Assembly: GCA_041666545.1 (NCBI GenBank)
Contig: JBAYGS010000002.1
Location: 106,395-170,394, forward strand
DNA: 64,000 nt
Source of the DNA: Minisyncoccota bacterium
GTDB lineage: Bacteria > Patescibacteriota > Minisyncoccia > Phycocordibacterales > JBAYGS01
Reading direction: 5' to 3'
The position numbers and the translations under genes are program-made. Shown piece after piece: positions 38,536-63,794 of the stretch (positions are counted from its first letter, which is position 1; each line of letters begins with the position of its first letter). The notes beneath the pieces were generated by a model. That model made no database searches and had not been told where the DNA came from. It worked only from the letters and a program-made list of their open reading frames with translations.

Positions 38536-38566
38536 TCTTTTTATCTCTATTTGTTAGAATGGGAAC

Positions 38567-39982
38567 ATGAAAAGAATTCGAGTTGTTGAACTGTTTGCAG
38601 GCGTAGGTGGCTTTCGTGTTGGTTTGGAGACTGCTACAAGAAATAATGGGCACATCAGGTATGAGGTAGTTTGGAGTAGTCAGTGGGAACCGGGTGCAAG
38701 TACTCAGCATGCTTCTCAAATCTATGAAGTAAATTTTGGTAAAGATGGACACTCGAATGAGGATATTCAAAAAATTATTGATAATAAATTCCACGAAATT
38801 CGAGACCATGATCTTTTAGTCGGAGGATTTCCTTGTCAAGATTACTCAGTAGCTAGGACATTAAGTCAGGCGAAGGGCTTAGAAGGGAAAAAGGGTGTTT
38901 TGTGGTGGTCAATATACAATATTCTTCAAAGGAAAGGTAAAAAGGCCCCTTCGTTCCTTTTATTGGAGAACGTCGACCGTCTGCTCAAATCCCCATCAGT
39001 ACAAAGAGGTCGTGATTTTGCTGTGATGCTTTCCTCACTTAATAATTTGGGCTATGCCGTTGAGTGGAGGGTCATAAACGCCGCAGAATACGGGATGCCT
39101 CAAAGAAGAAGGAGAGTCTATATTTTGGGCTATAAAAAAGGCACGGAAATTTATAAAAATCTCGAAGCGCAAGAAGATAAGGAAAGATGGATAAATAAAG
39201 ACGGGGTTACCGCCAAGGCTTTTCCGGTAAAAAATATAGTCCTAAATAAAAATAAATTCACATTGGAAAAAGATCTCGTAAAATTAACTAAAAATTTTTC
39301 AATGGGCAGTCCCCAAAAAAGTCCTTTTGAAATTTCTGGCATCATGATAAATGGTGAAGTTTATACGTACAAAGTTACCCCTGATTATGACGGCAAATTT
39401 ATTATTTTGAAGGATATTATTGAGCCGGATGAGAAAAAAATACAAAAAGAATTTTTCATTGATAAAAAAGATTTGCCAACATGGAAATATTTGAAGGGAG
39501 GGAAGAAGGAGGCCCGAAAAAGTAAGGGAGGTTTTACCTATGATTATTCAGAAGGCTCTATGGTCTTTCCCGATTCTCTTGAAAAGCCGTCCCGAACAAT
39601 TGTGACCGGTGAAGGAGGTATCTCACCTTCCAGATTCAAGCATGTGATAAAAACAAAGACCGGTAAGTTGCGTAGATTGACCTCAGAGGAGCTTGAGAGG
39701 TTGAATATGTTTCCGGAAGGCCACACAAAATTTATGCATAACGGGAAGATTACTCCAGATACAAAGAGGGCGTTTATTATGGGAAATGCGTTAGTTGTCG
39801 GTGTCATTGAAGGTCTTGGCAAAGCTCTGATTGAATTTATAAACAAGAAGCCAAAAAAGGGCAGGATGAGTGGAAAAAGGAAAAAATATTTAAGGGGCGA
39901 ACGCTCGCCACAACCACTAGGTGAAGATGTCCCCAAGAGGCTCGTGAGAACCGTTCTTGTGAGGGGGACATATTTAAGTTAA
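38567..39982 (+). CDS. DNA (cytosine-5)-methyltransferase (cognate M of the Sau3AI-like system)
   Basis: Motif I ELFAGVGGF, motif IV GGFPCQDYSVA, motif VI ENV, and a variable target-recognition domain. 471 aa. Confidence 0.9.
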   Translation: MKRIRVVELFAGVGGFRVGLETATRNNGHIRYEVVWSSQWEPGASTQHASQIYEVNFGKDGHSNEDIQKIIDNKFHEIRDHDLLVGGFPCQDYSVARTLSQAKGLEGKKGVLWWSIYNILQRKGKKAPSFLLLENVDRLLKSPSVQRGRDFAVMLSSLNNLGYAVEWRVINAAEYGMPQRRRRVYILGYKKGTEIYKNLEAQEDKERWINKDGVTAKAFPVKNIVLNKNKFTLEKDLVKLTKNFSMGSPQKSPFEISGIMINGEVYTYKVTPDYDGKFIILKDIIEPDEKKIQKEFFIDKKDLPTWKYLKGGKKEARKSKGGFTYDYSEGSMVFPDSLEKPSRTIVTGEGGISPSRFKHVIKTKTGKLRRLTSEELERLNMFPEGHTKFMHNGKITPDTKRAFIMGNALVVGVIEGLGKALIEFINKKPKKGRMSGKRKKYLRGERSPQPLGEDVPKRLVRTVLVRGTYLS

Positions 39983-39991
39983 TAATTTATG
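39939..39991 (+). repeat. 52-bp direct repeat DR-left (hairpin + GGGGG RBS + ATG)
   Basis: GCTCGTGAGAACCGTTCTTGTGAGGGGGACATATTTAAGTTAATAATTTATG is about 90% identical to 41766-41818. Confidence 0.7.
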
Positions 39992-40510
39992 AAAAAAGGC
40001 AAAGAAAAAGTTTTGGCAGGGATTGTTTTGAAATACTATCGTCTCTCCGATAAAAATGAAAAACCGGAAGGCGGACCCTCTGGAATTACTTGCGCGTATT
40101 GCCTCCTCCAAAATATTGTGCATATCGGCAGTGGTTTTAAGGACAAGAAGGGTAAGATCCATCACATCTGTGAACGATGCGCGGTAGAGGCCTATCGCAA
40201 GGAACATGGTTTTAAGACTTTGGCTGTGGCCGAGGCTAGGCGGAGGCGAATGTTTGATGTTGGGTATCTCTTCAACGAGATATTAGTTGACGAGTATATG
40301 AAGATTAAAGGGATTAAAGACTCTAAAAGTCTCGGTGAAAAAATTAATGATATTTTTGTCAGAGCTCCGGAATTGTATAACTATCTATTCAGTAAGGAGG
40401 AGAAAGTGAGGATTGAGGAAATCGAAGTTCAAGCTGAAATTGAAGCAGAATTAAGGGGAAAGATTGGAATTGTTGACCTTAAGCAGTTTTTCATTGAGGT
40501 CGGGTTGTAG
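39989..40510 (+). CDS. hypothetical Cys-rich protein (173 aa, CxxC...CxxC zinc-ribbon-like)
   Basis: Last gene of the radC-old-R-M operon. CAYC and CERC pairs. Followed by a 12-bp-stem GC hairpin at 40513-40540. Confidence 0.35.
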   Translation: MKKGKEKVLAGIVLKYYRLSDKNEKPEGGPSGITCAYCLLQNIVHIGSGFKDKKGKIHHICERCAVEAYRKEHGFKTLAVAEARRRRMFDVGYLFNEILVDEYMKIKGIKDSKSLGEKINDIFVRAPELYNYLFSKEEKVRIEEIEVQAEIEAELRGKIGIVDLKQFFIEVGL

Positions 40511-40618
40511 TTTTTGGCCCCGCCGTGTCCCACGGCGGGGCCTCACTGGGCCGATAGGGCAATAATATCTGTATTCTAAGGCCCGCATTTTGGATGTCAA
40601 GTTATCAACAGAAATTGC

Positions 40619-41359
40619 TTGATTTTTTTACAAGTTTTGTATATACTTTTTGGTATGACCAACAAGTATATACAAAAAATTAAGGAATTTCGTCTTAAAA
40701 AAGGTCTTTCTCAGGAACAAGTCGCGCAAGCTATCGGGGTCTCCCGCCCGACGTATACGGCAATTGAAGCTGGGAAAAAACAGAATCTCGATCTTGATGA
40801 GGCTCAAAAGCTTGCTAACTTTTTTGGAATCGGCTTGAACGAGCTAGTCTCTGGAACAATAGAAAATGTTGAGAAATATAAGCAGATGATACTTGCTTAC
40901 CTTAGGATGAACCTTTCAATTTCTAGAAATGGAAGGGTTACAAAGACTAAGCTTGCCAAACTTCTTTATTTTGCAGATTTTGCGTGGTTCTATGACCATC
41001 TAGAAAGTATGAGTGGAATGCAATATAAAAAATTTGCCTACGGTCCGGTGCCCGATACTTTTTTTCGTGTTCTCGATGAGTTGGAGGAAGATGGAAAAAT
41101 TAATATTGAAAGGAAGAAAGAGGACGGAAAGGATGTTTTCTTAATTACGGAATCGGAAAGTAATAAAAATGAGAAAATTACAACTATCTCTGCCGAGGAA
41201 AGGAAGTTGATGGAGAGGATTGCCAAAAAATGGAGAGGCAAAAACACTCAAGATATTGTTACTTTTACGCACAATCAATTTCCTTACACTGTTTGTCGAG
41301 ATAATGAAGTGATACCTTATGAATTGATAACCCAGGAAGACGCCGATAAGGTGTACTGA
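40619..41359 (+). CDS. XRE-family HTH protein fused to a Panacea (DUF4065, SocA-like) antitoxin domain
   Basis: HTH_XRE (LKKGLSQEQVAQAIGVSRPTYTAIEAG). C-terminal KTKLAKLLYFADFAWFYDHLESMSGMQYKKFAYGPVPDTF matches the Panacea/DUF4065 signature (KLxKLLYxxD...G.....GPV). Confidence 0.55.
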   Translation: MIFLQVLYILFGMTNKYIQKIKEFRLKKGLSQEQVAQAIGVSRPTYTAIEAGKKQNLDLDEAQKLANFFGIGLNELVSGTIENVEKYKQMILAYLRMNLSISRNGRVTKTKLAKLLYFADFAWFYDHLESMSGMQYKKFAYGPVPDTFFRVLDELEEDGKINIERKKEDGKDVFLITESESNKNEKITTISAEERKLMERIAKKWRGKNTQDIVTFTHNQFPYTVCRDNEVIPYELITQEDADKVY

Positions 41360-41364
41360 TTGAA

Positions 41365-41766
41365 ATGGTCATGCAAGGTAATTATTCCGTACGGATTGAG
41401 AAATATGCTGAAAGGCACTTCATAAGTAGTTTCGCTAAGAAGTATAACCAGCATTGGGATGTCACGCTTAGAGCGATTGTTTTTTCGCTTGAGCATATAG
41501 ATTCACTGCTTCTCACCGATAAGGCCGAGACGATATCTGATGTCGATGGCGTAAAGATAATTAAGATGAAGTTTACTGTGGCCAAAAGTGGAGAATCGGC
41601 TAAGTCCTCTGGCAATAGGTGTATTGTTGCCTGGCATAAGGACAAGCAGTTCGTGTCCGTATTGCTTGTATACGGTAAGACGGACTTAAGTGGTCATAAC
41701 GAGACTGCGGAGTGGAAAATGCTGATTCGAGAAAATTACCCAGAGTATAAAGAGCATTGCAAATAG
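41365..41766 (+). CDS. small hypothetical protein (133 aa) encoded immediately after the Panacea-like gene; candidate cognate toxin, family unknown
   Basis: 6-nt gap after the Panacea gene. No recognisable catalytic motif. The C-terminal RCIVAWHKDKQFVSVLLVYGKTD only loosely resembles the RelE/ParE-fold C-terminus. Confidence 0.3.
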   Translation: MVMQGNYSVRIEKYAERHFISSFAKKYNQHWDVTLRAIVFSLEHIDSLLLTDKAETISDVDGVKIIKMKFTVAKSGESAKSSGNRCIVAWHKDKQFVSVLLVYGKTDLSGHNETAEWKMLIRENYPEYKEHCK

Positions 41767-41818
41767 GCTCGCAAGAACCGTTCTTGCGGGGGGGACATAT
41801 TTAAGTAAACAATTTATG
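41766..41818 (+). repeat. 52-bp direct repeat DR-right (hairpin CGCAAGAA-CCGT-TTCTTGCG + GGGGGGG RBS + ATG of the denV-like gene)
   Basis: Copy of 39939-39991. The two repeats bracket a 1.83-kb three-gene cassette. Confidence 0.7.
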
Positions 41819-42169
41819 CGCGTCTGGGACATACACCCAAAACATTTATGCAGAAAGCACCTGCTGGGAGAACACCGGGAGCTTCATGGTCTTTGGAATA
41901 TTTTGACCAAACACGGCGGTAAGGGCGGGTATTCTCAGCATCCGGAAACTAAAAGGTGGGTAGGGAAAACTCGCGCGCTTTTTGGTAGACATCAAGCGTT
42001 GGTAAAAGAGATGGAGAAGCGAGGCTATAAGCATCAGTCATTGCTTGATAGGAAACTTGCAAAAGGTAAAGGTGGTCAAATTGTTTTTATAAATACCATC
42101 AAGGAGCAAAGAGTGATATTGAGAAACAAGCCTTGCGAGTGCTTTGCTCTGCATCATCGGAGTAAGTGA
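41816..42169 (+). CDS. pyrimidine dimer DNA glycosylase (T4 endonuclease V/denV-like, Pyr_excise family)
   Basis: MRVWDIHPKHLCRKHLLGEHRELHGLW...GYSQHPETKRW matches the conserved N-terminal region of the bacterial denV-like family. Confidence 0.55.
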   Translation: MRVWDIHPKHLCRKHLLGEHRELHGLWNILTKHGGKGGYSQHPETKRWVGKTRALFGRHQALVKEMEKRGYKHQSLLDRKLAKGKGGQIVFINTIKEQRVILRNKPCECFALHHRSK

Positions 42170-42896: not shown

Positions 42897-42908
42897 TATA
42901 TTGAGGAC

Positions 42909-43268
42909 ATGAAAATAAAAGGAACTGATTTTGTTTTATACAATGTGACTGATTATGAGCGAGCGGTTAAGTTTTACCGTGATGTGTTGGGACTCAAATT
43001 TGTCAGCGAATATGGTGGATACTGGGGAGAGTTTGATGCCGGAAATGTTGTTCTGGCAATCCACGCAAACAAGCAACCAATCAAAGGCGGCTCAGCGGTA
43101 GCTTTGGCCGTTGATGATGTTGATAAATTTGTCAAAACCCTGAAGGATAAAGGAGTAAAAATCAGCGAGGAGCCGAGCGAGACTGAAGTGTGTTTTATAG
43201 CTACGATTTGCGACCCGGACAATAATGAGATTATTCTCCATCAGAGAAAAGATGGAACTGTAGGCTGA
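42909..43268 (+). CDS. VOC/glyoxalase-bleomycin-resistance family protein
   Basis: 119 aa with paired beta-alpha-beta-beta-beta modules (VLGLKF...AIHANK...). Confidence 0.7.
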   Translation: MKIKGTDFVLYNVTDYERAVKFYRDVLGLKFVSEYGGYWGEFDAGNVVLAIHANKQPIKGGSAVALAVDDVDKFVKTLKDKGVKISEEPSETEVCFIATICDPDNNEIILHQRKDGTVG

Positions 43269-43851: not shown

Positions 43852-43925
43852 ACGGCTCACTTCTAAAGCCGAACGGCTCATTTAACGGTTAAATGAGCCG
43901 TTCGGGTATTTGGGTGAGCCGTTGG
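43852..43925 (+). repeat. ~60-bp repeat with a perfect internal palindrome (CGAACGGCTCATTTAACGGTTAAATGAGCCGTTCG), copy 1
   Basis: Second copy at 45083-45140. Each is followed by a GC-rich hairpin (CCCCGCCACAC...GTGTGGCGGGG, and GGCCCCGCCGACGGGGACGGCGGGGC). Confidence 0.6.
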
Positions 43926-44011
43926 TTTCTGGAGAGACCCCGCCACACTCTTTGGCCCCGTGTGGCGGGGTCGGGTGTGAATGGTGGCGCCCTATGATAT
44001 TCTTTGTGAAT

Positions 44012-52874: not shown

Positions 52875-53075
52875 GAAATTAGTTGGTAGTTGGTAGTGAG
52901 TAGTGAGTAGTTTGGAACTCAAAATCACTATCAACCAATAAGATAATGGTTGATAACGGCCTCATAAATGATTGGTCTTAATGATAGCCAAAGGGGATTA
53001 ATTGTAAAGAGTTGACATCCTTAGTATCGAGTGCTAGTTTTTGACTAGAAAAGGCAACTCAAAAGGTGGTTTATT

Positions 53076-60838: not shown

Positions 60839-61177
60839 TCAGCCGATTTTGCTGGCGTAGGTCGAAGGATTAGGGTCCGGATTTTTTCGGTCGAATTCGG
60901 CGCCGGCCTTTTGCATGAAATCCAATTTGGCGAGATTGTGCATCTGTTTCTTGATTTGACGGTCGGCATCGACACGCCGGAGTCTCTCAAACTCCCTCTT
61001 TGTTCGGAATTTTTCTGCTCGGATTTTTTTGGCGAGAGCTTTCGGCAGAGTTTGCCCGGTCTCGAGTACGGATTTCACTCTGGCCAGTAGGTCTTCCAGG
61101 AATTCCGAGCGACACTCGGGATGCCAAGGCGTAGTAGTCATTCTTTCGCAGTAAGGACAGGGTCTGATACAAGCCAT
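60839..61177 (-). CDS. hypothetical CxxC protein (112 aa)
   Basis: CIRPCPYCE...C cysteine cluster and a basic helical C-terminus. Terminator GCCCCGCGCATGTTGCATGCGCGGGGC downstream on the minus strand. Confidence 0.3.
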   Translation of the reverse strand: MACIRPCPYCERMTTTPWHPECRSEFLEDLLARVKSVLETGQTLPKALAKKIRAEKFRTKREFERLRRVDADRQIKKQMHNLAKLDFMQKAGAEFDRKNPDPNPSTYASKIG

Positions 61178-63084: not shown

Positions 63085-63241
63085 CGACACAAATACACGA
63101 ATGAGGACGAATGACACGAATAGCTGAATTCGTGTGTGCGTATTCGTGGTTTCGCTATGCGCATACCTTATTCGTGTGCCCTATTCGTAAGGGTTCTCAA
63201 CAGCTTTTTATTCGTGTGCCCTATTCGTAAGGGTTCTCAAC
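63085..63241 (+). promoter_or_regulatory. dense cluster of ATTCGT/ACGAAT half-sites including a tandem pair of the 34-nt motif (63168-63201, 63208-63241)
   Basis: ACACGAATGAGGACGAATGACACGAATAGCTGAATTCGTGTGTGCGTATTCGTGG...TTATTCGTGTGCCCTATTCGTAAGGGTTCTCAAC x2, upstream of the ftsL-like/rpsA operon on the minus strand. Confidence 0.5.
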
Positions 63242-63794
63242 AAAAAGCCCCACGAAAGCTTGCGCTTCGTGGGGTTCGGGGGACAAATGGTTTTGCCTTG
63301 GCTTCAGGTTGCCGAAACATTGGTTCGGCAAGTCACTTGGAATTTCCTGATTCCAAAGGAAGCCTGATTCTCCGACTGGTCCGATTATTCAGGGTAGTCG
63401 GGCGGCCAGTGTCAGGTGCCTGATGTGGCTGGTCTGACTTGGTTATCGGATACTTGGGAGAGTCCGCAATCTCGATCTGCTATCCTGCCACCATTTTGGC
63501 AGAATGCAGTCGGGTTTGGTTTACATTGCAAGCAATGTCGGACTTTCCCACGACTCCGTAGGGGGTTCCTACGTTTAGGCTGCTCCGGTCTTTGTTCACT
63601 CCCGGAATCGTGTATTCCATTCCCACGGCCCTCTCGGGCCGTGGGCTTTGTCCTGAAATCATCCTACCCATAAAAAGCCTTTTGGCAAGCTTGATAAAAA
63701 CAAATTTTGTTGTCTAATTTTATCTGCGATTTTGCCAATCCAAGAAAAAAGCCCCTCACCGCAAGCGGCGAGGGGCAATCGGGGAATAGTGACT

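What the first reader, a model, noticed from the sequence alone, without database searches (positions are those of the whole stretch)
39939..41818. 1.8-kb cassette (Zn-ribbon gene + XRE-Panacea-like protein + unknown small protein) bounded by ~52-bp direct repeats that each carry hairpin + RBS + ATG
GCTCG(T/C)(G/A)AGAACCGTTCTTG(T/C)G(A)GGGGGACATATTTAAGT(T/A)AA(T/C)AATTTATG occurs at 39939-39991 and 41766-41818. The left copy ends in the start codon of the Zn-ribbon gene. The right copy ends in the start codon of the denV-like gene. Each contains an 8-bp-stem hairpin and a G-run RBS. This looks like a recombination or cassette boundary: the three intervening genes may have been inserted between the methyltransferase and denV by duplicating a translation-initiation region. 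It also looks like a portable regulatory unit. Gene cassettes that carry their own hairpin-RBS-ATG junctions are reminiscent of integron-like or recombination-hotspot organisation, but no integrase is nearby.
Basis: seen in the sequence. Interest (0 to 1): 0.6.

Follow-up and report, generated by a model that had tools for sequence, protein, structure and literature searches.

The report
Duplicated hairpin spacer at gene-module junctions
A 53-base stop-to-start spacer carrying an RNA hairpin occurs twice in an accessory-gene island of a Patescibacteria chromosome, each copy at a seam between separately acquired gene modules; it is real and slightly unusual, but it is not an integron-like cassette boundary or a ribosome-binding-site switch.

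Summary
The repeat is real: 53 nt, 39939-39991 and 41766-41818, 47/53 identical. It is unique within the 64-kb window and absent from three public collections scanned. It is the same in four independent assemblies of one Ca. Paceibacterota species.

Each copy has a 10-bp hairpin, an invariant 17-mer and an AU-rich stretch ending in the true ATG of the Zn-ribbon gene or denV. All four stem differences keep pairing, and only on the + strand.

- The G-run lies 21 nt from the ATG, and this genome shows no Shine-Dalgarno usage.
- The hairpin does not occlude the start codon.
- The segment between the copies is not one cassette. The XRE-Panacea/RelE-fold toxin pair (40587-41765) is a separate module with its own promoter. 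It occurs in at least three other genomic contexts without the repeat or the Zn-ribbon gene.

Both copies do sit at module seams. The right copy starts at the base after the TA module ends. The left copy lies in a non-conserved read-through tail of the methyltransferase.

Best reading: a duplicated intercistronic stem-loop plus leader serving two promoter-less genes. The closest analogue is phage PeSL linkers, but it has no promoter or SD. No empty site or recombinase was found. Interest is modest.

The parts
39939..39991 (+). Left copy of the 53-nt repeat (hairpin + invariant box + AU-rich leader + ATG of the Zn-ribbon gene). It is translated as the last codons of the methyltransferase ORF.
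41766..41818 (+). Right copy of the 53-nt repeat. It starts at the G that completes the toxin's TAG stop and ends in the ATG of denV.
39941..39963 (+). Left hairpin: stem 39941-39950 / 39954-39963, loop CCG, three G-U pairs, -6.5 kcal/mol.
41768..41790 (+). Right hairpin: stem 41768-41777 / 41781-41790, loop CCG, -13.3 kcal/mol.
39963..39979 (+). Invariant 17-mer GGGGGACATATTTAAGT, left copy.
41790..41806 (+). Invariant 17-mer GGGGGACATATTTAAGT, right copy.
38567..39850 (+). Conserved part of the C5 cytosine methyltransferase, part of a low-GC OLD / MutH-like REase / MTase block. It has its own TTGATC-17-TAGAAT-6-ATG promoter-like site.
39851..39982 (+). Non-conserved C-terminal read-through tail of the MTase ORF (residues about 430-471). 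It contains the left repeat copy. The TAA stop lies 6 nt before the Zn-ribbon ATG.
39989..40510 (+). 173-aa Zn-ribbon (CxxC...CxxC) + helical protein. It belongs to a small Patescibacteria-only family of unknown function.
40516..40542 (+). GC-rich 12-bp hairpin after the Zn-ribbon gene (no U-tract).
40587..41765 (+). Independent TA module. It holds a promoter-like site with a 20-bp inverted-repeat operator (40619-40677), the XRE-HTH+Panacea antitoxin (40655-41359) and a RelE/HigB-fold toxin (41365/41371-41766).
41816..42169 (+). denV-type pyrimidine-dimer DNA glycosylase, served by the right copy.

Best explanation
The 53-nt unit is a complete stop-to-start intercistronic spacer that has been duplicated locally. 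It now precedes two unrelated genes, the Zn-ribbon gene and denV, neither of which has a recognisable promoter of its own.

I infer that it acts in the mRNA. The stem-loop would be an intercistronic structural element: a 3'-end protector, a weak attenuator or an insulator for the upstream cistron. The unpaired AU-rich stretch would be the SD-independent ribosome entry zone for the downstream cistron. At the left copy this would be helped by termination-reinitiation, because the MTase ORF stops 6 nt before the Zn-ribbon ATG.

The segment between the copies is not one cassette. The most economical history is [spacer]-Zn-ribbon-terminator-[spacer]-denV. Two foreign modules then arrived immediately 5' of each copy: the low-GC OLD/REase/MTase block on the left and the Panacea TA module on the right.

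Shown: the repeat, its uniqueness, the hairpin-preserving substitutions, the absence of SD usage, the module boundaries, and the non-conserved MTase tail.
Inferred: RNA-level function, co-transcription, and the order of events.
For: Repeat and uniqueness.

Hairpin: 10 bp in both copies. All four stem differences are transitions between a Watson-Crick and a G-U pair, so all 10 pairs hold on the + strand. On the - strand 3 (left) and 1 (right) would be A-C mismatches. The chance of four random stem substitutions keeping all pairs is 0.007-0.03.

Leader: the 17-nt box is invariant. The two remaining differences lie in the AU-rich leader.

Promoters: neighbouring genes (MTase, XRE, glyoxalase and others) have TAnAAT 6-8 nt before the ATG. 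Zn-ribbon homologues in other genomes have canonical -10-type boxes close upstream of the ATG, 8 nt before it in L043. The Zn-ribbon gene and denV here have the repeat there instead.

Translation: the genome shows no SD usage and encodes a multi-domain S1 protein. The start region is unpaired in the left-copy fold and only weakly paired in the right.

Left seam: the MTase family ends at residue about 423-430 in the PADLOC model and in the best-scoring aligned stretch of all 150 best homologues. The tail containing the left copy is therefore read-through.

Right seam: TA-module homology to L049, L051 and L053 ends at 41765, and the right copy starts at 41766.

Composition: GC3 is 0.23-0.27 for RadC/OLD/REase and 0.37 for the MTase, against 0.44-0.46 for the Zn-ribbon gene and denV.
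Against: There are only two copies and no orthologous sequences, so there are no double-compensatory changes and no phylogenetic support. There are no transcript data.

The left hairpin is weak (-6.5 kcal/mol) and is translated through. Whole-region folding is not better than shuffles (z -0.2 and -1.2). There is no U-tract, so it is not a canonical terminator. Rfam finds nothing.

A minimal TAnnnT (TAAGTT) sits 8 nt before the Zn-ribbon ATG in the left copy only, so a weak leaderless promoter there cannot be fully excluded.

The strict invariance of a 17-mer is more than an 'unstructured AU-rich leader' needs. It hints at a sequence-specific partner that I have not identified.
Confidence: 0.45

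Rival explanations
1. An active recombination linker that works like phage PeSLs. Conserved stop-to-start spacers would serve as short homology patches, or as sites for an unidentified recombinase, so that genes between two copies can be excised as circles and inserted at another copy. On this view the repeat is the vehicle of gene shuffling in this accessory island.
For: The geometry matches PeSLs: it spans from stop codon to ATG, has a stem-loop, and flanks an ORFan-like gene (PMC2839356). Both copies lie at seams between modules. The TA module ends at the exact base before the right copy. The island is a mosaic downstream of tRNA-Glu with relics of integration. A second hairpin-bearing repeat pair flanks another gene 2 kb away.
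Against: Only two copies are known. The longest identical runs are 17 and 13 nt, which is short for RecA-type exchange. There is no recombinase within the 64 kb. No empty-site or alternative-cargo variant exists in any collection. The TA module moves between genomes without this repeat. The repeat has no promoter or SD, both of which PeSLs have.
Confidence: 0.2
2. A DNA-level operator. The perfect palindrome AGAAC-C-GTTCT would be bound by a dimeric regulator that co-regulates the Zn-ribbon gene and the UV-repair gene denV, for example a damage-response regulon.
For: The 11-bp palindrome core is identical in both copies, and all stem differences lie outside it. GAAC/GTTC half-sites recall Gram-positive SOS boxes (own knowledge). 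denV is a DNA-repair gene.
Against: No correctly placed promoter overlaps it. The only sigma-70-like match (TTGTGA-18-AATAAT) would start transcription inside the ORFs. The half-site spacing (N1) differs from known SOS boxes (N4). There is no enrichment of the palindrome elsewhere in the window. The strand-specific wobble pattern would have to be coincidence.
Confidence: 0.1
3. A functionally neutral scar. A single illegitimate or Campbell-type insertion duplicated about 53 bp of the denV upstream region, and the copies are simply drifting.
For: There are only two copies, adjacent to each other, in a recombination-prone island. The left copy has the weaker stem and is overprinted by an ORF.
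Against: Six substitutions have accumulated, yet none breaks a pair, and a 17-mer is untouched. The duplication ends exactly at two real start codons. The intervening DNA is composite, so one insertion event cannot explain it.
Confidence: 0.15
4. Ends of a non-autonomous single-strand transposon of the IS200/IS605 type (PATE-like), whose two subterminal hairpins lie in the same orientation. Or attL/attR of an integrative element. Or an integron cassette with attC sites.
For: The hairpins are directly repeated and strand-specific, with no inverted terminal repeats.
Against: No Y1 transposase, TnpB, integrase or IntI appears in the window's scanned ORFs. All three intervening genes are accounted for. 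Similarity continues 27 nt past each hairpin to the ATG, which transposon ends do not predict. There are no attC R''/R' core sites (RYYYAAC / GTTRRRY) in the sequence.
Confidence: 0.04

Closest known systems
PeSL (promoter-early stem-loop) regulatory cassettes of T4-type phages (Arbiol et al. 2010, PMC2839356; PMC4122927)
   Same: A short conserved unit that fills the whole space from an upstream stop codon to the downstream ATG. It contains a stem-loop with G-T/G-U pairs, flanks non-essential ORFan-like genes in a plastic region, and has copies in direct orientation either side of a gene.
   Different: PeSLs contain a strong sigma-70 promoter and a Shine-Dalgarno site; this unit has neither. 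PeSLs number about 50 per phage genome and are linked to observed indels and mini-circles; here only two copies are known and no polymorphism has been seen. The host here is a cellular CPR chromosome, not a phage.
Integron attC sites and gene cassettes
   Same: Promoter-less genes separated by structured, strand-specific repeats. TA cassettes are common cargo in chromosomal integrons.
   Different: No IntI, no attI, no R''-L''/L'-R' architecture or GTTRRRY core. The repeat lies 5' of genes up to the ATG rather than 3' of the cassette. There are only two copies.
REP/BIME-type intergenic palindromes and intercistronic mRNA-stabilising hairpins (e.g. malE-malF; own knowledge)
   Same: An intercistronic stem-loop on the transcribed strand, without a U-tract, that could protect upstream mRNA and modulate the relative expression of cistrons.
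   Different: REPs are high-copy and genome-wide, and are associated with RAYT transposases. This unit is low-copy and includes a conserved 27-nt leader reaching the start codon.
IS200/IS605 subterminal hairpins / PATEs
   Same: Directly repeated, strand-specific hairpins at both ends of a segment, with no terminal inverted repeats and no short target duplication.
   Different: No TnpA or TnpB. Homology extends beyond the hairpin to the ATG at both ends. The cargo is composite.
PanA (Panacea-domain) toxin-antitoxin systems (Kurata et al. 2022, PMC8832971)
   Same: The XRE-HTH+Panacea protein followed by a small toxin (here with a RelE/HigB fold) is a standard PanAT pair. It is an autonomous, mobile two-gene module.
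   Different: This concerns the cargo, not the repeat. The TA module neither needs nor carries the repeat in other genomes.

Membership tests
PeSL-type regulatory linker | Stem-loop within a unit spanning upstream stop codon to downstream ATG | tested here: met
   The right copy runs from the G of the toxin TAG to the denV ATG. There is a 10-bp stem in both copies. The left copy is overprinted by the MTase read-through tail.
PeSL-type regulatory linker | Consensus sigma-70 promoter inside the unit, driving the downstream gene | tested here: not met
   The only match (TTGTGA-18-AATAAT, 9/12, left copy) ends 2 nt before the ATG, so transcription would start inside the ORF. There is no TAnAAT at -6 to -8, unlike neighbouring genes.
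PeSL-type regulatory linker | Shine-Dalgarno site before the ATG | tested here: not met
   The G-run is 21 nt from the ATG. The genome shows no SD usage.
PeSL-type regulatory linker | Many copies concentrated in plastic regions, with indels between close relatives at the copies | tested here: inconclusive
   Two copies in 64 kb. The four available contigs of the species are identical, so no closer relative could be compared.
Integron cassette / attC | Integron integrase (IntI) and attI nearby | tested here: not met
   No integrase or recombinase among the called genes from about 30 to 50.5 kb, or among the 30 other long ORFs scanned outside that range. Three ORFs of at least 110 aa (26607-27698, 27695-30550, 60839-61177) were not fully covered.
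Integron cassette / attC | attC architecture: R''(RYYYAAC)-L''...L'-R'(GTTRRRY) imperfect palindrome with extrahelical bases | tested here: not met
   The stem reads CTCG(T/C)(G/A)AGAA/TTCTTG(T/C)G(A/G)G. GTTCTTG does not fit GTTRRRY, and there are no bulged bases.
IS200/IS605-type element or PATE | Y1 transposase (TnpA) in the element or genome region | tested here: not met
   No PF01797-type or TnpB protein among the window ORFs scanned.
IS200/IS605-type element or PATE | Subterminal hairpins in the same orientation at both ends, with flanks otherwise unrelated | tested here: inconclusive
   The hairpins are in the same orientation. However, homology continues 27 nt 3' of both hairpins, to the ATG.
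Intrinsic (Rho-independent) terminator | GC-rich hairpin followed directly by a U-tract | tested here: not met
   The hairpin is followed by GGGGGACAUAUUU. The terminator scan does not report it, whereas a canonical terminator exists at 45593.
RNA thermometer / RBS-sequestering riboregulator | SD and/or start codon paired within the regulatory hairpin | tested here: not met
   The hairpin ends 25 nt before the ATG. The start codon is unpaired in the left-copy MFE and only weakly (5-bp A/U) paired in the right. There is no functional SD.
REP/BIME-type high-copy intergenic palindromes | Tens to hundreds of copies genome-wide | tested here: inconclusive
   Only two copies in 64 kb. Among the public collections scanned, the 17-mer scans of the species-representative genomes and the JGI metagenomes gave only chance hits, none with the hairpin, and the hairpin-plus-box pattern gave no match in the JGI metagenomes or viral contigs. 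The remaining roughly 130 kb of the contig and the rest of the MAG could not be read.
PanA-type (Panacea) toxin-antitoxin pair (cargo genes 40655-41766) | Panacea (SocA-like) domain antitoxin adjacent to a toxin gene, conserved as a pair | tested here: met
   HTH_3 + SocA_Panacea. The partner has a RelE/HigB fold (1wmi_A, E 5.5e-4, prob 1.0; HigB2, PfiT). The pair is conserved in every full-length locus examined (L049-L057).

The most novel reading that the evidence does not exclude
The 53-nt unit is a cellular counterpart of phage PeSL linkers. It would be a portable stop-to-start spacer whose hairpin foot is a preferred insertion point, letting promoter-less or self-contained defence modules (R-M, TA, ORFans) be slotted in and expressed in the streamlined, SD-poor genomes of Patescibacteria without any dedicated integrase.
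Probability: 0.15. Interest if true: 0.6.

Novelty: new variant of a known kind. Interest (0 to 1): 0.3.

Why it matters
If the unit is only a duplicated intercistronic leader, it is a small illustration of two things. It shows how promoter-less genes are expressed in a genome that lacks Shine-Dalgarno sites. It also shows how acquired modules pile up at the same seams: an R-M methyltransferase reads through into a neighbouring spacer, and a TA module is fused so precisely that its stop codon is completed by the spacer.

If such spacers turn out to be recurrent recombination linkers in CPR bacteria, they would provide a recombinase-free route for building defence islands in very small genomes, parallel to PeSL-mediated shuffling in T4-like phages.

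Tried and rejected
- **Public scans for the repeat.** GAACCGTTCN{4,10}GGGACATATTTAAG gave 0 hits in JGI metagenome contigs and IMG/VR. The 17-mer GGGGGACATATTTAAGT gave 11 hits in GTDB representative genomes and 24 metagenome loci. All were in unrelated taxa, none had the hairpin, so they are chance matches. Neither collection contained the source species. A negative result there therefore says only that no other sampled lineage has the repeat.
- **Empty-site search through denV homologues.** The closest are 80-85% identical (L005, L006, L007, L048). They have unrelated upstream sequences and almost no synteny.
- **Zn-ribbon homologues.** There are only 15. Their contexts vary and none has the repeat.
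- **Strain variation.** L002 and L003 are 100% identical to the window.
- **Rfam.** Nothing relevant.
- **A third, degenerate copy.** ATATTTAAG also occurs at 39886 in the MTase tail. The similarity is only this 9-mer, and about 3.5% of random windows score as high. Rejected as evidence.
- **GGGGACACATTT before the ATG at 49406.** Within chance expectation.
- **Similarity between the DNA upstream of the left copy and the DNA that preceded the right copy before TA insertion.** None found.
- **Palindrome as a regulon operator.** No enrichment in the window.
- **Structure of the Zn-ribbon protein.** pLDDT 75. No PDB match better than E = 1.8, so the function remains unknown.
- **Remnant ORFs in other frames of the MTase tail.** None found.


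Full report
**1. Observation**

The repeat finder reports 39935-39991 and 41762-41818 (57 nt, 88%, spacing 1827). Comparison with other genomes shows that on the right side the first four bases belong to the end of the toxin gene. The repeat proper is therefore 39939-39991 and 41766-41818: 53 nt, 47/53 identical.

Both halves of the unit occur only at these two places in the 64-kb window. None of 100 dinucleotide-preserving shuffles gave two matches, and no other copy appears in a whole-window repeat search. The arrangement is identical in four independent assemblies (ENA 194-kb contig, NCBI MAG, JGI, Logan), so it is not an assembly artefact.

Each copy ends in a genuine start codon. The Zn-ribbon family starts MKK/MKN at this position, and denV homologues start MRVWD/MRIWD.

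**2. Setting**

The window is an ordinary chromosome of a Candidatus Paceibacterota (Patescibacteria/CPR) MAG. It carries housekeeping genes: RNR, MurJ, LepA, aminoacyl-tRNA synthetases, FtsZ/FtsA, YbeY, Pth and ribosomal protein S1.

Downstream of tRNA-Glu lies a low-GC accessory stretch, with relics of tRNA duplications next to the tRNA gene. In order, it holds:
- RadC
- an OLD-family ATPase
- a MutH/Sau3AI-like restriction enzyme
- a C5 methyltransferase
- the Zn-ribbon gene
- an XRE-HTH+Panacea gene
- a 131/133-aa gene
- denV

GC3 is 0.23-0.27 for RadC/OLD/REase and 0.37 for the MTase. It is 0.44-0.46 for the Zn-ribbon gene and denV, which is close to the surrounding genes. No integrase, transposase or resolvase is encoded among the called genes from about 30 to 50.5 kb or among the other long ORFs scanned. 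Three ORFs of at least 110 aa outside the annotated range were not fully covered.

**3. Anatomy of the unit**

Each copy has four parts:
- GG
- a 10-bp stem with loop CCG
- an invariant 17-mer, GGGGGACATATTTAAGT, whose first G is the last stem base
- 9 AU-rich nt (differing at two positions), then the ATG

All four stem differences between the copies switch between a Watson-Crick pair and a G-U pair. All ten pairs therefore hold on the + strand in both copies. On the - strand, three (left) and one (right) would be A-C mismatches. Simulating four random stem substitutions keeps all pairs in only 0.7-3% of trials. This is modest but real evidence that the stem is maintained on the transcribed strand. 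It rests on only two sequences and no double-compensatory change.

The left stem is much weaker than the right (-6.5 vs -13.3 kcal/mol). Folding of the 71-nt regions is not better than shuffles. Rfam has no match.

**4. What the unit is not**

- **Not a Shine-Dalgarno site.** The G-run lies 21 nt from the ATG. Among 55 ORFs of the window, SD-like motifs at functional spacing are no more frequent than chance. Many genes instead carry TAnAAT 6-8 nt before the ATG, the leaderless pattern.
- **Not a start-codon mask.** The hairpin ends 25 nt before the ATG and the start region is unpaired in the left-copy MFE and only weakly paired in the right.
- **Not a canonical terminator.** No U-tract follows the hairpin. 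The terminator scan skips it but finds a textbook terminator at 45593.
- **Not a correctly placed promoter.** The only sigma-70-like match would start transcription inside the ORFs. A minimal TAAGTT 8 nt before the Zn-ribbon ATG exists in the left copy only.
- **Not an attC site**.

**5. The segment between the copies is composite**

The 131-aa protein belongs to a well-conserved Patescibacteria family of 390 proteins. Its predicted structure (pLDDT 86) has a RelE/HigB fold (1wmi_A E 5.5e-4, HigB2, PfiT). In every full-length locus examined it directly follows an XRE-Panacea gene, making a PanA-type TA pair (PMC8832971).

These pairs sit in at least three unrelated contexts, often beside R-M genes. 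None has a Zn-ribbon gene or the repeat. Nucleotide homology (about 76%) between the window and these loci runs from 40587 to 41765. It stops at the last A before the stop codon's third base, and downstream sequences are unrelated.

All homologues end in TAA. In the window the stop is TAG, and its G is the first base of the right repeat copy. The module has its own promoter-like site (TTGATT-17-TATACT, 7 nt before the ATG) and a 20-bp inverted repeat spanning it.

The Zn-ribbon protein has only 15 homologues, all from Patescibacteria. Their contexts vary, and canonical -10-type boxes lie close upstream of the ATG (8 nt before it in L043). Its fold gives no functional lead.

The 'three-gene cassette' therefore breaks down into two parts: [unit + Zn-ribbon gene + GC hairpin] and an independently mobile TA module.

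**6. The left copy lies in a read-through tail**

The PADLOC MTase_II model and the best-scoring aligned stretch of all 150 best homologues stop at residues about 415-440 of the 471-aa ORF. Many of these proteins end there. The last 40 or so codons (about 39851-39982) are therefore lineage-specific. They run through the left hairpin and box to a TAA 6 nt before the Zn-ribbon ATG.

This fits an R-M block whose right-hand junction removed the native MTase stop codon. It also sets up termination-reinitiation for the Zn-ribbon gene.

**7. Interpretation**

Both copies are whole stop-to-start spacers placed in front of genes that lack a promoter of their own. Both lie at seams where foreign modules abut. 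On the right, the seam fits to the nucleotide.

I consider it most likely (about 0.45) that the unit is a duplicated intercistronic mRNA element: a stem-loop plus an AU-rich ribosome entry zone suited to an SD-free genome. On this view its position at seams reflects insertions being tolerated, or favoured, just 5' of such spacers.

The main rivals are:
- **An actively recombinogenic PeSL-like linker (0.2).** The geometry and setting fit, but there are only two copies, no variants and no promoter or SD.
- **A neutral duplication scar (0.15).** This is hard to reconcile with six substitutions that break nothing and with a boundary exactly at two start codons.
- **A DNA operator on the AGAAC-C-GTTCT palindrome (0.1).** There is no promoter and no other sites.
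- **Transposon, att or integron ends (<0.05).**

The invariance of the 17-mer is not explained by any of these. It suggests an unidentified sequence-specific partner.

**8. Limits**

The genome outside the window could not be read. The species is absent from the two large DNA collections that can be pattern-scanned. No close relative exists in the protein-context index.

**9. Verdict**

This is a real, lineage-restricted feature. It is best described as a new variant of known 'regulatory linker' repeats: PeSL-like in geometry, but without a promoter or SD, and in a CPR chromosome. Interest is modest (0.3) because only two copies are known and there is no comparative or expression evidence.

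Noticed in passing
window 43855-43913 and 45090-45148: A second local pair of direct repeats (59 nt, 93% identical), each containing an 18-bp perfect palindrome (CCGAACGGCTCATTTAAC|GTTAAATGAGCCGTTCGG) and each followed by a GC-rich hairpin. The pair flanks the AAA_18 kinase-like gene (43994-44572) plus about 500 nt. Hairpin repeats on either side of single genes therefore recur in this island.
   Followed up: partly
window 33804-33844, 34109-34149, 20851-20891, 44840-44880: Four copies of a 28-bp perfect palindrome, ATTCTAGCTTTTTGCAAAAAGCTAGAAT. Two of them flank the 90-aa HTH_20 (ArsR-like) gene at 33866-34138, the second overlapping its 3' end. This is probably an operator family.
   Followed up: no
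window 33346-33393, 33538-33610, 33760-33783: tRNA-Glu has a 94%-identical duplicate of its 5' half 190 nt upstream. A diverged copy of its 3' end (GGGTCGAATCTCCCCGTAGGATCA) lies 150 nt downstream. These look like relics of integration events at the head of the accessory island.
   Followed up: partly
whole window (e.g. 38555-38569, 40642-40657, 42897-42911, 45708-45726, 47419-47435): SD-like motifs are essentially absent. Many genes have a TAnAAT box (often TG-extended) 6-8 nt before the ATG, which suggests widespread leaderless mRNAs in this Paceibacterota genome.
   Followed up: partly
window 40619-40677: Promoter-like site of the XRE-Panacea antitoxin gene (TTGATT-17-TATACT, 7 nt before the ATG). 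It is embedded in a 20-bp inverted repeat (40635-40654 / 40658-40677, 95% complementary) that spans the -10 box and the start codon. This is a likely autoregulatory operator, conserved in the homologous modules of other genomes.
   Followed up: partly
window 40573-40600 (- strand) and 40516-40542: The best sigma-70-like match in the region (TTGACA-16-TAGAAT, 11/12) points leftwards from the edge of the TA module towards the 12-bp GC hairpin after the Zn-ribbon gene. In other genomes a small divergent ORF (50-72 aa) sits at this position. Here it may drive a short antisense or orphan transcript.
   Followed up: no
window 6351-6431, 63169-63248, 25415-25446, 45625-45656: A family of about 32-40-nt repeats, TATTCGTGTGCCCTATTCGTAAGGGTTCTTAAC. 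It occurs as tandem pairs at two distant sites and as single reverse copies at two others, all intergenic. Its function is unknown.
   Followed up: no
window 13792-13817, 15509-15620, 17625-17694, 20289-20360, 33310-33343, 51556-51723, 52857-52933, 58333, 62681: Short tandem arrays of heptamer-like units (TAGTGAG/TAGTGGG, and the complement CTACTNA, including a 14-nt x about 10 array at 51556-51723) lie in many intergenic regions upstream of genes.
   Followed up: no
window 39886-39894: The only other ATATTTAAG in the window lies 84 nt upstream of the left copy, inside the non-conserved MTase tail, next to a small hairpin (GGCGAACGCTCGCC). The similarity does not extend beyond this 9-mer (about 3.5% of random windows score as well), so it may be chance.
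   Followed up: yes
window 39989-40510; loci L043, L044, L046: The 173-aa CxxC...CxxC Zn-ribbon + helical protein defines a small family (15 proteins) found only in Patescibacteria. It has invariant RRRxFDxGY and NYLFSKE motifs and no Pfam, NCBIfam, PADLOC or PDB match. In two of three other genomes it sits beside R-M or NYN-nuclease genes and small TA-like ORFs, so it may be an uncharacterised defence-associated gene.
   Followed up: partly
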